Shown piece by piece: positions 4,997 to 9,520 of a DNA stretch of 64,000 nucleotides; position 1 is the first letter of the stretch; each line of letters opens with the position of its first letter. Source of the stretch: the human T2T-CHM13v2.0 reference genome, Homo sapiens; NCBI GenBank assembly GCA_009914755.4, contig CP068257.2, positions 31,968,001-32,032,000 of the forward strand, in the 5' to 3' direction. A program made the position numbers and the translations under genes. The notes beneath the pieces were generated by a model, which was not told where the DNA came from, did not search any database, and saw only the letters and a program-made list of their open reading frames with translations.

Positions 4997-5559
4997 GTAG
5001 CTGGAAGGATTGTTAAGGTGGCAATGTAAAGGAGAATTAAATAAAACCATTCAATAAGCAGAGGATGCCAGGCAGGCCACTTTCTCTTGTTTCAAGTTTT
5101 GCACTCTCAGAGACTCAACATGTTAAGTTAGAGAAATTCTGTAGGACGTCAAGTTTAGCTCTACAACAGGGAAATGATTTGAGAGTTGGTGGTGTAATAG
5201 AGCCTAAATTTCCAAGGACAAGTGACAAGAGCAGCAAGTCAAGCCTGGTGCTTATCCTAAGTGCTCACCACTATTATCTCAATGGATGCGAATGAAATAG
5301 TGTCTAGTTTTCATTTCTACACTACATATGGCATTTTTAGTTAAAAACAATTTTAGCACGTATATATCTTACTTTAGATGTACATTCGTTGACCAGGCTG
5401 GTTGGTTAATGGGCTCAAAATTTGTTTGCAGAAGCCAGTAAACTTTATGTGTGTATGATATACAGTCATCCCTCACGCATCCATGAGGGATTGGTTCCAG
5501 GACCCCCATGAAGACCAAAATCTCCAGATACTCAAGTCCCTTATAGAAAATAGTGCAGC

Positions 5560-5772
5560 AGCTTGGGAAACAAGGCTCTCTACAAAAAAATTAAAAATTA
5601 GCCAGGCATGGTGGCATGTGCCTGTTGCCCCAGCTACTGGGGAGGCTGAGGCAGGAGGATCCCTTGAGCACATGGGTTTGAGGTTACAGTGAGCTGGAAT
5701 GAGCACTGCACTCCAGCCAGGGCAACAGAGCAATACCCTGTCTCAAAAGAAAAAAAAAAAGAAAGAAAAAAA
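5560..5772 (+). mobile_element. 5'-truncated Alu
   Basis: TTAGCCAGGCATGGTGG...GCACTCCAGCC...poly-A. Confidence 0.8.
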
Positions 5773-5932
5773 AAATGGCCTAGTATTTGCATATAACCGA
5801 GGCACATCTCCATTATACATTAAGTCATCTCTATATTACTTATAATACCTAATGCAATGTAAATACTATGTAGATAGTGGTTATGCTATTTTTTTTGTTT
5901 TTTTTATTGTCGTATTATTACTTTTTCAGAGC

Positions 5933-6225
5933 TTTTTTTTTTTTTTTTTGAGACAGGGGCCCCCTCTGTGGCCCAGGCTAGAGTGCAGTGGCATGATCAT
6001 GGCTCACTGCAGCCTCAACCTCTCAGGCTCTAGTGATCCTCAGCCTCCCAAGTAGCTGGGACCACAGCAATTCACCGCCACACCAGGTTAATTTATTTTT
6101 ATTTTTGTATAGACAGGGTCTCCCTATGTTGCCCGGGCTGGTCTCAAACTCCTGAGATGAAGCCATCCTCCTGCCTCAGCCTCCCAAAGTGCTGGGATTA
6201 CAGGCATGAGCCACTGCCCCCAGCC
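5933..6225 (-). mobile_element. Alu SINE (older subfamily)
   Basis: reverse-complement Alu consensus. Confidence 0.9.
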
Positions 6226-6558
6226 TCCAAATATTTTTGATCCTTGATTGGTTGAATCCCTGGATGTGGAACCCTCAGATACAGGGGGCTGATCGTATGT
6301 CACTAAGAGAATCAGAAAATGATGTAAAAATCAAAGAAAAAATCTATCTTGCTAATTTAATTGAAATTATAATACTAAGATCAAGATTCTATGTAATTGC
6401 CCGTACTTCTGAATTATTTATGGCCCAGAATGACACAGTTGGAAGGAGATGTCTCTGTTAAATCACAAGCAGCAACTTAGCTTGTATGAACTGAATGAGG
6501 AGGGTTTGCACAAGTGAGGACTACTGTATGATTCAGGACTTTAGAAAATGCAAATTAG

Positions 6559-6868
6559 GGCTGGGTGCGGTGGCTAACGCCTGTAATCCCAGCATTTTGG
6601 GAGGCTGTAGCAGGTGGATCACCTGAGGTCAAGAGTTCGAGACCAGCCTGACCAATATGGTGAAATCCTGCCTCTACTAAAAATACAAAAATTAGGTGGG
6701 CATGGTGGCATGCGCCTATAGTCTCAGCTACTTGGGAGGCTGAGACAGGAGAATTGCTTGAACCTGGGAGGCAGAGGTTGCAGTGAGCTGAGATGGCGCC
6801 ACTTCACTCTAGCCTTGGTGACAGAGCGAGACTCTATCTCAAAAAAAAAAAAAAAGAAAGAAAGAAAA
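6559..6868 (+). mobile_element. Alu SINE
   Basis: GGGCTGGGTGCGGTGGCT... poly-A/(GAAA)n tail. Confidence 0.9.
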
Positions 6869-6902
6869 TGCAAATTAGCAAATATAAGTCATTTAAAACA
6901 TT

Positions 6903-7194
6903 TCTTTTTTTTTGAGACGGAGTCTCGCTATGTTGCCCAGGCTGGAGTGCAGTGGCACGACCTCGGCTCACTGCAAGCTCCGCCTCCTGGGTTCATGCCA
7001 TTCTCCTGCCTCAGCCTCCCGAGTAGCTGGGACTACAGGTGCCCGCCACCATGCCTGGTTAATTTTTTGTATTTTTAGTAGAGAAGGGGTTTCACCATGT
7101 TCGCCAGGATGGTCTCAATCTCCTGACCTCGTGATCCGCCCACCTTGGCCTCCCAAAGTGCTGGGATTACAGGCGTGAGCCACCACACCTGGCC
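6903..7194 (-). mobile_element. AluY-like SINE
   Basis: GTTCATGCCATTCTCCTGCC diagnostic. 35 bp from the + Alu at 6559, giving an inverted pair. Confidence 0.9.
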
Positions 7195-7490
7195 TAAAAA
7201 TATTTTTAAAAGGAAACTAAAGAATATAAATTTACTAATTCACATCCCTGCAAGTTCCCTTCCTACTGCTGTTAATAAAATTCTTACCTGTGTGCAAAGC
7301 ATGTATTTCTGATTCTGGAAAATGTACAGTATTTCATATACACATGTCATGTTTCAACTTGGTCCAAGGATTTGTCAAATAGGTTAAAATTGCCTTCTCA
7401 TCGGGAGAGGTGGTTTGAGAGAATTAAGTTATATACTATAAGCAGAGCAGTCTAGTTTCCAACATGTAAGATTCAAAACTAATAGCTACA

Positions 7491-7800
7491 GCCGGGAGTG
7501 GTGGCCCATGCCTGTAATCCCAGCACTTTGGGAGGCTGAGGCGTGTGGATCACCTGAGGTTAGGCGTTTGAGACCAGCTTGACCAACATGGTGAAACTCC
7601 GTCTCTACTAAAAAATACAAAAAATTAGCCAGGCGTGGTGGCGCATGTCTGTAATCCCAGCTACTCAGGAGGCTGAGACAGGAGAATTGCTTGAACCCAG
7701 GAGTTGGAGGTTGCAGTGAGCCAAGCTCATGCCACTGCACTCCAGCCTGGGCAAGAGTGAGACTCTGTCTCAAAAAAAAAAAAAAAAAAAAAAAAAAAAA
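7491..7800 (+). mobile_element. AluS/Y SINE with 18-bp TSD TCAAAACTAATAGCTACA (7473..7490 and 7801..7818) and about 60-nt pure A tail
   Basis: TSD read directly on both flanks. Confidence 0.95.
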
Positions 7801-7946
7801 TCAAAACTAATAGCTACATAGTATTCTAACCTTAACTAATGTTACTTTTGTTAACTGTTACTTTTAATAGCCACATGGTATTCTCCACTGTAGCATCATT
7901 CCATGTTATTCTTAATAATTACAATGTTATTGGATTGGACATTTAC

Positions 7947-8246
7947 TTTTTTTTTTTTTTTTGAGACAGAGTCTCGCTCTGTAGCTAAGCTGGAGTGCAG
8001 TGGCGCGATCTCAGCTCACTGCAACCTTCACTGCCTGGGTTCAAGCAATTCCCCTGCCTCAGCCTCTGGAGTAGCTGGGACTACAGGCGTGTGCCACCAC
8101 ACCCAACTAATTTTTTTTTTTTTGGTATTTTTAATAGAGACGGGGTTTCATCATGTTAGCCAGGATGGTCTCGATTTCCTGACCTCGTGATCCCCCACCT
8201 CGGCCTCCCAAAGTGCTGGGATTACAGGCATGAGCCACTGTGCCAG
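7947..8246 (-). mobile_element. Alu SINE
   Basis: reverse-complement Alu consensus. Confidence 0.9.
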
Positions 8247-8428
8247 CTCATGTACCTTTTTAAAAAATGAAATTAATTAAAAATCCTTTTAGAAAGTTAA
8301 ATCTAATTTTCAAATTTAATAGGAAATATTTAATCAGAAATAACTTTAAACTCATACATTCACTACATGAAGGGGTTTTGAAATCTACTCCTTAAAACTT
8401 AACACATGCAGTATACTAATTACGTAAC

Positions 8429-8596
8429 TTTTTTTTTTTTTTTTTTTTTTTGAGATGGAGTCTCACTCTGTCACCAGGCTGGAGTGTAGTAGTGCAATCT
8501 TGGCTCACTGAAACCTCTGCCTCCCAGGTTCAAGCGATTCTTCTGCCTCAGCCTCATGAGTAGCTGGGATTACAGGCATGTGCCACCATGCCCGGC
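8429..8596 (-). mobile_element. Partial Alu (right arm only / FRAM-like)
   Basis: poly-T + right-arm RC ending CCACCATGCCCGGCC. Confidence 0.8.
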
Positions 8597-9520
8597 CTAC
8601 ATAACTACCTTAAAGCTCCGAATAAAGACTGTCATTGCTCCTGGAGGGAACTGGCCTTTATACATATCACACATATATGACTAGACACATTTAAGAAAAG
8701 TAACGTATGATATTCAGTAGAGAGAAGTGTAAGGCTATGTAAATCTTTCTTCAGACACACACATATGCTCTATCAAGTAATGATAACTTTTTTTTTATCC
8801 AATACATTAAAACTTTTACCAAGTGCTGCTGCCTCTAAGCCAGTCATTTTAGAAATAAAAGGAATTCTTAAGTTGACCCTACTCTAAAGAGGTTTGCACC
8901 TTTCTTTTTGAAATTGTTTGTATATTCCAAACTTTTTATTATTTTTACTCAACTGGAATGATTTGGCTTCAATCACACCAGACTTATCTCTGAATGACTT
9001 TTGTTTCAAAAAGTCAAACCTATCTTCATTTGATAAAGATTTCCTAGCATTGATATTTATAAAACACTCCACAAACTCTTTAATTTAGAAAAGTATTCTG
9101 AAATGTTTCTGTGCAATGGCACCATCATAGGAGTAAGTGTGCAACCTTTCAAGGTGATGTGTGCTTTCCTTAATGTGAGGTTAAAAACAAAATCTTCCAG
9201 GTATCTTAGGGCTCATCTCTGTTCAGAAAGGAGAGAGACTGCCTGAGTGTGATTCTTGCTCCGCCACTTGCTGCGTCCTTGAGTCTGTATCAACATCTCT
9301 GTGCTTCTGTTTCTTCACCTGTGAAATGGGGATGATAACAGTACTTACATCTCAAAAGGCTGTTTTAATGTTTAAATGAATACTTGCAAGGCACTTGGAA
9401 TACTGTTTGGAATACTTAAGGAAACTTAACTGCTATTATTATTTCCTATTATCGTAATGAAAGAACTTAGTACAGTACAAAGTTCAAGCCAGAAACTCAA
9501 TCAGTCGATAAAAAGGATAT

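What the first reader, a model, noticed from the sequence alone, without database searches (positions are those of the whole stretch)
4997..9520. U12-type (minor spliceosome) AT-AC intron between CRYZL1 exons 11 and 12
Exon 11 (...GGA AAA TAT CTT T) has no GT donor before the in-frame stop (..ATC GAC TGA). It ends directly in front of ATATCCTTTT, which matches the U12 5' splice-site consensus /ATATCCTT. At the other end of the intron the sequence is CCACCTTAACaatccttccagctAC|GTATCTT: a match to the U12 branch-point consensus (TCCTTAAC) lies 15 nt upstream of an AC terminal dinucleotide. Splicing at exactly these positions restores the frame (T+GT = Cys) and gives ...[24 protein letters not shown]..., completing a 350-codon ORF with no gaps. 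Every other intron in the gene is GT-AG. The ~4.5 kb intron carries several Alus, including a tight inverted pair (6559..6868 + / 6903..7194 -).
Basis: partly seen in the sequence, partly recalled or inferred. Interest (0 to 1): 0.6.

Follow-up and report, generated by a model that had tools for sequence, protein, structure and literature searches.

The report
Known U12-type AT-AC intron in CRYZL1

Summary
On the minus strand, exon 11 (9626..9521) ends directly before ATATCCTTT. The 4524-nt intron (9520..4997) ends in CACCTTAAC, then 15 nt, the last two being AC. Joining 9521 to 4996 is the only junction that restores the frame, and it completes a 349-aa quinone oxidoreductase-like protein 1 (CRYZL1). 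The ten other coding introns fit GT-AG. Spliced transcripts from another species carry exactly this junction. Genomic sequences from other mammals, echidna, a bird and a gecko keep ATATCCTTT, the branch site, its spacing and the terminal AC, while the rest of the intron diverges.

It is not new. The intron is listed as a minor intron by Olthof 2019 (human and mouse) and de Wolf 2021. De Wolf 2021 also shows its retention rising from PSI 0.25 to 0.64 after CENATAC depletion.

It lies at the optimal 12 nt from the branch A. Parada 2014 reports it as an AT-AG junction. Using it frameshifts to a 322-aa isoform, which is also annotated in six other mammals.

The Alu claim holds: seven Alus, with the inverted pair at 6559..7194.

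The parts
9521..9626 (-). CRYZL1 coding exon upstream of the intron ('exon 11'), 106 nt, ending ...GGAAAATATCTTT
   Evidence: Junction mapping, tblastn, and transcript contigs L007/L008 aligned to the window.
9512..9520 (-). U12-type 5' splice site /ATATCCTTT, a 9/9 match to the /RTATCCTTT consensus
   Evidence: It is invariant in nine genomic sequences from other species while positions +10..+39 diverge. Published 5' splice-site scores are 0.955 (de Wolf 2021) and 90.1 (Olthof 2019).
4997..9520 (-). The AT-AC intron, 4524 nt, phase 1
   Evidence: It is the only junction solution.
5012..5020 (-). Branch-point sequence CACCTTAAC. The inferred branch A is at 5013, which is 16 nt from the AC junction and 12 nt from the AG junction.
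   Evidence: De Wolf 2021 give bp_seq CACCTTAAC with score 0.910. (C/T)CCTT(A/G)AC is kept at the same spacing in a second mammal (L006), echidna, bird and gecko. The mouse BPS is TGAACCTTAACA. The branch A itself is inferred from the consensus and was not mapped.
5025..5036 (-). Second branch-site-like motif TTCTCCTTTACA, the one Olthof 2019 scored for human; probably not the functional site
   Evidence: One search lists it. It is present in L006 but absent in echidna, bird and gecko. It lies about 30 nt from the junction.
4997..4998 (-). 3' terminal AC dinucleotide of the intron
   Evidence: It is conserved in all five species where the 3' end was recovered.
5001..5002 (-). Alternative AG acceptor 4 nt upstream of the AC junction. 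Its use adds CTAC to exon 12 and shifts the frame.
   Evidence: Parada 2014 report an AT-AG 'U12-like' CRYZL1 junction 4 nt shorter than the AT-AC intron, seen in 10 tissues and annotated as ENST00000381540. The predicted 322-aa product ends ..GKYLSTYLKGCDGEVINWCFQTSVG*. The same ST(Y/H)(L/F)K.. tail is annotated in six other mammals.
4951..4996 (-). Downstream coding exon ('exon 12'), 46 nt, GTATCTTAAAGG...TTTCAG, followed by a GT donor
9559..9560 (-). In-frame GT inside exon 11 (GAA|GTTTGG), a candidate cryptic U2-type donor that would pair with the AG acceptor
   Evidence: Sequence. Sorex araneus isoform X2 (P0049) reads LNEE|LRILKDV, which is this donor position joined to the AG acceptor. 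Use in human is inferred only. A second in-frame GT lies at 9542..9541.
6559..7194 (.). Tail-to-tail inverted Alu pair inside the intron (6559-6847 on +, 6907-7194 on -)
   Evidence: pair I2. RNA fold -440.7 kcal/mol, z = -41.8.
5577..8597 (.). Span holding all seven Alu copies or fragments of the intron
   Evidence: blastn with an Alu consensus recalled from memory, plus 23 inverted-repeat pairs.

Best explanation
This is the constitutive U12-type (minor-spliceosome) AT-AC intron of human CRYZL1, the gene for quinone oxidoreductase-like protein 1.

How it works:
- The 5' splice site /ATATCCTTT is recognised by U11 and later by U6atac.
- The branch site CACCTTAAC pairs with U12 snRNA.
- The 3' splice site is chosen a short distance downstream of the branch site, normally at the AC 16 nt after the branch A.
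- Joining 9521 to 4996 forms a Cys codon (T+GT) and continues the frame into the last two coding exons.
- A fraction of transcripts instead use the AG 4 nt upstream, 12 nt after the branch A. That frameshifts to a 322-aa isoform whose stop lies in the last exon.

Shown here: the sequence signals, the unique frame solution, the in vivo junction, conservation across amniotes, and published minor-spliceosome dependence.

Inferred: the snRNA pairings, the identity of the branch A, and the relative use of AC versus AG.
For: - Sequence at both ends.
- One and only one junction solution, and it is AT-AC, while ten other junctions fit GT-AG.
- The assembled 349-aa product is 100% identical to P0008. 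Its best named relatives are 'quinone oxidoreductase-like protein 1' or 'Crystallin zeta like 1' from many vertebrates.
- Spliced contigs L007/L008 carry the exact junction.
- The database ORF P0005 reads ..[13 protein letters not shown]...
- ATATCCTTT follows the exon end in all nine other-species genomic sequences.
- Branch site, 15-nt spacing and terminal AC are kept in human, echidna, bird and gecko; in the mammal L006 the spacing is 16 nt.
- Olthof 2019 list chr21:33591208-33595730, ENST00000381554-CRYZL1, as a minor intron conserved between human and mouse.
- De Wolf 2021 list it as AT_AC in NM_145858.2, with strings identical to the window. Retention PSI goes 0.25 to 0.49 to 0.64 on CENATAC depletion, adjusted p 1.5e-9, with an alternative-acceptor event up-regulated.
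- The 11-13 nt optimum for branch-to-3' splice site distance is from Turunen 2013.
Against: - The branch A lies 16 nt from the AC junction, beyond the 11-13 nt optimum.
- The first two positions of the branch motif (CA) depart from the TTCCTTAAC consensus.
- In ZRSR2-mutant MDS cells the rise in retention is small and not significant after correction: PSI 0.21 to 0.33, adjusted p 0.53.
- Basal retention and alternative events are substantial. Mis-splicing indices are 0.12-0.59 across tissues, so the AT-AC junction is not the only outcome.

None of this contradicts the U12 assignment.
Confidence: 0.97

Rival explanations
1. The principal junction is AT-AG. The minor spliceosome mainly uses the AG at 5002..5001, which sits at the optimal 12 nt from the branch A, and the AC junction is secondary.
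For: - AG position and distance, against the 11-13 nt optimum.
- An AT-AG junction was seen in 10 tissues and is annotated as ENST00000381540.
- The frameshifted ST(Y/H)(L/F)K.. isoform is annotated in Tupaia, Microcebus, Mustela, Marmota, Heterocephalus and Sorex.
- The AG at -4 is present in human, L006 and echidna.
Against: - AG use breaks the frame and removes the conserved C-terminal 47 residues.
- Most retrieved homologues carry the in-frame junction (largest class [14 protein letters not shown], 52 of 127) against six with the frameshifted one.
- Both spliced contigs use the AC junction.
- Bird and gecko have no AG there yet keep the AC at the same spacing.
- RefSeq NM_145858 and ENST00000381554 use AT-AC.
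- Turunen 2013 describe AT-AG combinations as disfavoured.
Confidence: 0.02
2. It is a U2-type (major-spliceosome) AT-AC intron, a rare class that shares the terminal dinucleotides but not the U12 signals.
For: AT-AC termini alone do not prove U12 dependence. De Wolf 2021 count 85 major AT-AC or related introns.
Against: - The 5' splice site is a perfect ATATCCTTT and the branch site is CCTTAAC at short distance.
- Published U12 scores are 0.955 and 0.910.
- Retention responds to CENATAC depletion, whereas none of the 85 major AT-AC introns did.
Confidence: 0.005
3. The region is really spliced GT-AG by the major spliceosome, from an in-frame GT inside exon 11 (9560 or 9542) to the AG at 5001.
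For: Both GTs are in phase 0, and the AG acceptor then keeps the frame (..LR ILKDV..). Sorex isoform X2 (P0049) is annotated this way. Activation of cryptic U2 sites around minor introns is well described.
Against: - It would delete [14 protein letters not shown] or VQQGKYLC, which are present in most homologues and in the spliced contigs.
- The donors GTTTGG and GTACAA are weak by eye.
- This is at most a minor or stress-induced isoform.
Confidence: 0.005

Closest known systems
U12-type AT-AC ('A-type') minor introns, as catalogued in MIDB (Olthof 2019) and in de Wolf 2021
   Same: - 5' splice site ATATCCTTT, branch site CCTTAAC close to the 3' end, AT-AC termini and non-zero phase.
- Deep conservation.
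- CENATAC-dependent retention with a relatively high basal retention of PSI about 0.25.
- This exact intron is an entry in both lists.
   Different: Nothing categorical. The branch A lies 16 nt from the junction rather than 11-13 nt. The first two branch-motif positions are off consensus.
U12-type introns with non-canonical AT-AG termini or alternative 3' splice sites (Parada 2014; Turunen 2013 review)
   Same: The AG at 5002..5001 gives an AT-AG variant of the same intron, using the same 5' splice site and branch site. It is listed for CRYZL1 with a U12-like score of 89.2. Error-prone or alternative 3' splice-site choice is a known property of U12 introns.
   Different: Here it is a secondary, frameshifting outcome beside a dominant AT-AC junction. 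The AG is restricted to the mammals sampled.
U2-type AT-AC introns
   Same: Terminal dinucleotides only.
   Different: They lack the ATATCCTT 5' splice site and the TCCTTAAC branch site, and they do not respond to CENATAC depletion. This intron has both signals and does respond.

Membership tests
U12-type (minor spliceosome) intron | 5' splice site matching /RTATCCTTT | tested here: met
   ATATCCTTT at 9520..9512, a 9/9 match. Published scores are 0.955 and 90.1.
U12-type (minor spliceosome) intron | Branch-point sequence matching TCCTTAAC, roughly 10-20 nt from the 3' splice site | tested here: met
   CACCTTAAC at 5020..5012 matches 7 of 8 positions of TCCTTAAC. The inferred branch A is 16 nt from the AC junction and 12 nt from the AG. 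Published BPS score 0.910. The motif and its spacing are conserved in five species.
U12-type (minor spliceosome) intron | AT-AC (or GT-AG) terminal dinucleotides at the junction actually used in mRNA | tested here: met
   AT-AC is the only frame solution. Spliced contigs L007/L008 and ORF P0005 carry this junction.
U12-type (minor spliceosome) intron | No strong polypyrimidine tract between branch site and 3' splice site | tested here: inconclusive
   Only 15 nt (AATCCTTCCAGCTAC) separate the branch motif from the junction. The tract is short and mixed by eye, but I computed no formal score.
U12-type (minor spliceosome) intron | Evolutionary conservation of the U12 signals at the orthologous position | tested here: met
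   The 5' splice site is invariant in nine other-species sequences. Both intron ends were recovered in a second mammal, echidna, bird and gecko. Mouse is listed as conserved.
U12-type (minor spliceosome) intron | Splicing depends on minor-spliceosome components | not testable with these tools
   Literature only. Retention PSI goes from 0.25 to 0.64 after CENATAC depletion, adjusted p 1.5e-9. In ZRSR2-mutant MDS it goes from 0.21 to 0.33, adjusted p 0.53. I found no RNU4ATAC data; the TALS paper's supplements are not held.
U12-type (minor spliceosome) intron | Base pairing of the 5' splice site with U11/U6atac and of the branch site with U12 snRNA | not tested
   Inferred from the consensus matches. 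I did not align the snRNA sequences.
CRYZL1 / quinone oxidoreductase-like protein 1 gene | The encoded protein is the CRYZL1 orthologue | tested here: met
   The assembled 349-aa product has best hits at 100% (P0008) and 94% and below, named 'quinone oxidoreductase-like protein 1' or 'Crystallin zeta like 1'. These hits carry Pfam PF00107 and PF08240.

The most novel reading that the evidence does not exclude
The AG/AC tandem acceptor (CAG-CT-AC in human and L006, CAG-AT-AC in echidna; absent in the bird and gecko) might be a mammal-specific, selected switch rather than splicing noise. In that reading, minor-spliceosome activity or CENATAC level sets the ratio of full-length CRYZL1 to a 322-aa isoform with a different C-terminus. 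That isoform escapes NMD because its stop lies in the last exon. Supporting hints: the AG sits at the optimal branch distance, the isoform is annotated in six other mammals, and an alternative-acceptor event rises on CENATAC depletion. Parada 2014 also report an A>G change at intron position +1, which would make a GT-AG form. I could neither support nor exclude that.
Probability: 0.12. Interest if true: 0.3.

Novelty: already known. Interest (0 to 1): 0.1.

Why it matters
It matters little as a discovery. The intron is in RefSeq and Ensembl models and in the minor-intron catalogues, and its minor-spliceosome dependence has been measured.

The result does have practical value:
- A tool-less reading of raw sequence can correctly identify a U12 intron.
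- Several automated annotations still mis-join this junction because they cannot model AT-AC introns. Examples are the B10K bird gene models and one rodent model.
- CRYZL1 is one of roughly 700 genes whose expression is exposed to minor-spliceosome defects such as RNU4ATAC, ZRSR2 and CENATAC disease.

Tried and rejected
- my first recursive exon-chaining script timed out. I replaced it with junction-by-junction enumeration.
- a protein search with the 52-aa junction peptide returned only seven short ORFs and no named proteins. Those ORFs still proved useful, as read-through ORFs from other species' genomic contigs.
- look-ups of Passer and Varanus isoform proteins failed because only the longest product per gene is on record. 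I then used sole-product or X1 (first-isoform) models instead.
- the TALS/RNU4ATAC paper has no supplements held, so I have no RNU4ATAC data.
- I looked for dsRNA around the 5' splice site that could explain the reported A>G change at +1.
  - A 13-nt perfect complement exists between 9541..9529 and 5174..5162.
  - The best duplex (-33 kcal/mol) is unremarkable against other tiles of the pre-mRNA (mean -23.6, sd 4.9, best -40).
  - That duplex leaves the 5' splice site unpaired.
  - The nearest Alu is about 900 nt away.
- Rfam found no RNA family in 4500..10000.
- I considered and rejected a U2-type AT-AC intron, GT-AG splicing from donors inside exon 11, and AG as the main acceptor (see the rival explanations).
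Full report
**1. What is in the sequence**

The gene lies on the minus strand. At the upstream end the sequence reads ...CAACAGGGAAAATATCTTT|ATATCCTTTTTATCGACTGA. The exon ends at 9521 and the intron starts at 9520. At the downstream end it reads ...TTCTCCTTTACATTGCCACCTTAACAATCCTTCCAGCTAC|GTATCTTAAAGGATGTGATGGAGAAG... The terminal AC is at 4998..4997 and the next exon starts at 4996.

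Translating across the joined exons gives ...[24 protein letters not shown], followed by a GT donor. Reading through the intron instead gives ..[10 protein letters not shown], and no GT occurs before that stop.

**2. Gene model**

I used the CRYZL1 protein sequence recalled from memory only as a guide. With it, tblastn found 12 coding exons on the minus strand, from 45367 down to about 3611. I then enumerated every donor/acceptor pair that reproduces the local protein.
- Each of ten junctions has a GT-AG solution.
- The junction in question has exactly one solution, 9521|4996, and it is AT-AC.

The assembled CDS is 349 codons plus a stop, and the intron is 4524 nt in phase 1.

Independent of my memory, the assembled protein is 100% identical to database protein P0008. 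It is 94% or less identical to dozens of proteins named 'quinone oxidoreductase-like protein 1' or 'Crystallin zeta like 1'.

CpG islands at about 1751-3000 and 55251-57250 fit a non-coding first exon upstream.

**3. Is it more than chance?**

The motifs alone are not.
- RTATCCTTT occurs twice in 64 kb against 1.87 expected.
- CCTTAAC occurs nine times against 10.1 expected.

The significance lies in position. Both motifs, and an AC, sit exactly where the only frame-preserving junction must be. My rough estimate from those counts puts this below 1e-8.

**4. Evidence that the junction is used**

The protein database held short ORFs called on genomic contigs of other species that read from exon 11 into the intron (..GKYLYILF..). 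It also held one ORF from a spliced sequence..[26 protein letters not shown]...

I fetched the contigs behind these ORFs.
- L007 and L008 are intron-less, RNA-derived sequences from another species. They join ...AAATATCTTT directly to GTATCTTAAAAGATG. Their blocks map to the window's exons, including 9628-9516, then 4996-4950, then 3717 onward.
- Among the 127 homologous proteins retrieved, most read GKYL(C/S/A)IL(K/E/R)D(V/I)MEK across the junction. The largest class is [14 protein letters not shown], with 52.

**5. Conservation**

An exon-only pattern located the exon end in every genomic contig, and ATATCCTTT followed it each time. Against human, positions +1..+9 are 9/9 identical in nine sequences. 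Positions +10..+39 are only 5-19/30 identical.

I recovered whole loci for a bird (Furnarius, L132), a gecko (Sphaerodactylus, L133) and the echidna (L134). One metagenome contig of a mammal (L006) holds both intron ends. The table shows the 3' ends.

| Species | 3' end of intron and start of exon | Intron length |
|---|---|---|
| Human | CACCTTAACAATCCTTCCAGCTAC\|gt | 4524 |
| L006 (mammal) | CACCTTAACAGTCTTTTCCAGCTAC\|gt | 2149 |
| Echidna | TACCTTAACCGCACTCTCAGATAC\|gt | 2034 |
| Bird | GTCCTTGACAATCCTCTTGGATAC\|cc | 1356 |
| Gecko | TTCCTTGACAGTCTTCTTATATAC\|gc | 1537 |

- The branch motif, its 15-nt spacing to the junction (16 nt in L006) and the terminal AC are kept across amniotes.
- The split codon varies: Cys in mammals and gecko, Ser in the bird.
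- The upstream motif TTCTCCTTTACA (5036..5025) is what Olthof 2019 scored as the human branch site. It is not conserved outside placentals, so CCTTAAC is the better candidate. Mouse has TGAACCTTAACA.

**6. Already known**

- Olthof et al. 2019 (PMC6717393) list chr21:33591208-33595730, ENST00000381554-CRYZL1, and the mouse Cryzl1 intron as minor introns present in both species, with 5' splice site TTTATATCCTTT. They report alternative events around it (CAT6 and CAT9, mis-splicing index 0.12-0.59 across tissues).
- De Wolf et al. 2021 (PMC8280824, Dataset EV1) list it as AT_AC in NM_145858.2. The donor score is 0.955, the branch score is 0.910 and bp_seq is CACCTTAAC.
  - Their donor and acceptor strings each occur exactly once in the window, at 9530..9506 and 5036..4991.
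  - Retention PSI is 0.25 in controls, 0.49 after 24 h and 0.64 after 48 h of CENATAC depletion (log2FC 2.31, adjusted p 1.5e-9). An alternative-acceptor event inside the intron is up-regulated.
  - In their re-analysis of ZRSR2-mutant MDS (Dataset EV2), PSI goes from 0.21 to 0.33 with adjusted p 0.53.
  - A third dataset in the same paper shows 0.21 to 0.40 with adjusted p 0.27. I did not read that file's legend.

**7.

An AG lies four nucleotides upstream of the AC junction, at 5002..5001.
- Taking the second A of TTAAC (5013) as the branch point, the AG junction is 12 nt away. That is within the 11-13 nt optimum quoted by Turunen 2013. The AC junction is 16 nt away.
- Parada et al. 2014 (PMC4176328) list a CRYZL1 AT-AG junction, chr21:34963517-34968036 (hg19), 4519 nt long. 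It is typed U12-like with score 89.2, was seen in 10 of 16 tissues (157 reads) and is annotated as ENST00000381540.
- With their BED-style lengths, this intron is 4 nt shorter than the 4523-nt AT-AC intron of the hg38 lists. The coordinate offsets agree at both ends, so it is this AG.
- AG use adds CTAC and frameshifts to a 322-aa protein ending ..GKYLSTYLKGCDGEVINWCFQTSVG*. The stop falls 15 nt into the last exon, so NMD is not expected.
- The same ST(Y/H)(L/F)K.. tail is annotated in Tupaia, Microcebus, Mustela, Marmota, Heterocephalus and Sorex.
- The AG is present in human, L006 and echidna, and absent in the bird and gecko.
- A Sorex isoform (P0049, LNEE|LRILKDV) joins an in-frame GT inside exon 11 to this AG. 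The human equivalents of that GT are at 9560 and 9542. This is a plausible cryptic U2-type route. I did not examine human use.

[quoted passage not shown] I found no convincing double-stranded partner for the 5' splice site, and the nearest Alu is about 900 nt away. This remains open.

**8. Intron content**

The intron holds seven Alu copies or fragments and 23 inverted-repeat pairs. Rfam finds nothing in 4500..10000.

**9. Verdict**

The mechanism is standard U12-dependent splicing of an A-type minor intron, with a known secondary AT-AG outcome. Novelty is 'already known' and interest is low.

The only mildly open question is whether the mammalian AG/AC tandem acceptor is regulated or is noise.

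Noticed in passing
window 5001-5002 (-): An AG 4 nt upstream of the AC junction sits at the optimal 12 nt from the branch A. Using it gives an AT-AG variant and a frameshifted 322-aa isoform. It is reported by Parada 2014 and annotated in six other mammals. It is present in human, L006 and echidna but not in the bird or gecko.
   Followed up: yes
P0127, P0126, P0117, P0115 (bird gene models); P0023 (Ctenodactylus): These automated annotations mis-join this junction. Examples are ..GKYLYILIMEKLS.. and ..GKYLYILLSSWIPILEDV... They read into the intron or skip residues, apparently because the predictors cannot model AT-AC introns. The Furnarius genomic locus (L132) has a clean ATATCCTTT...GTCCTTGAC-N15(ending AC) intron.
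   Followed up: partly
window 14108-14116 (-): A second perfect ATATCCTTT lies inside the intron between the coding exons ending at 16027 and starting at 13038. Its AT-rich context is not exon-like. With 1.87 matches expected per window, it is probably chance.
   Followed up: partly
window 9529-9541 and 5162-5174 (-): A 13-nt perfect complementarity links the end of exon 11 (TACAACAGGGAAA) to a site about 165 nt upstream of the 3' splice site (TTTCCCTGTTGTA). About 0.05 such matches are expected by chance. The duplex energy (-33 kcal/mol) is not exceptional against the rest of the pre-mRNA.
   Followed up: partly
window 9520 (-), intron position +1: [quoted passage not shown] I found no dsRNA partner. 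Editing, a SNP and a mapping artefact cannot be told apart with these tools.
   Followed up: partly
window 4997-9520: The intron is 4524 nt in the window, but published hg38 coordinates (33591208-33595730) give 4523 nt. This suggests a 1-nt indel relative to the reference, perhaps in an Alu A-tail, or a difference in coordinate convention.
   Followed up: no
window 5025-5036 (-): Olthof 2019 scored TTCTCCTTTACA as the human branch site. That motif is not conserved in echidna, bird or gecko, whereas CCTT(A/G)AC at 5012-5018 is. It lies about 30 nt from the junction.
   Followed up: yes
window ~1751-3000 and ~55251-57250: Two CpG-island-like stretches (GC 0.56-0.82, CpG observed/expected 0.7-0.96). 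The first lies just downstream of the CRYZL1 stop and is presumably a neighbouring gene's promoter. The second lies about 10 kb upstream of the ATG exon and is presumably the CRYZL1 promoter with its non-coding exon 1. Neither was annotated.
   Followed up: no
L007 467-548: The spliced contig from another species carries about 82 extra nucleotides between the exons that map to 11193-11070 and 9628-9521. This may be an alternative cassette exon that breaks the frame, which would explain why the called ORF P0005 starts only at MAFLNDE.
   Followed up: no
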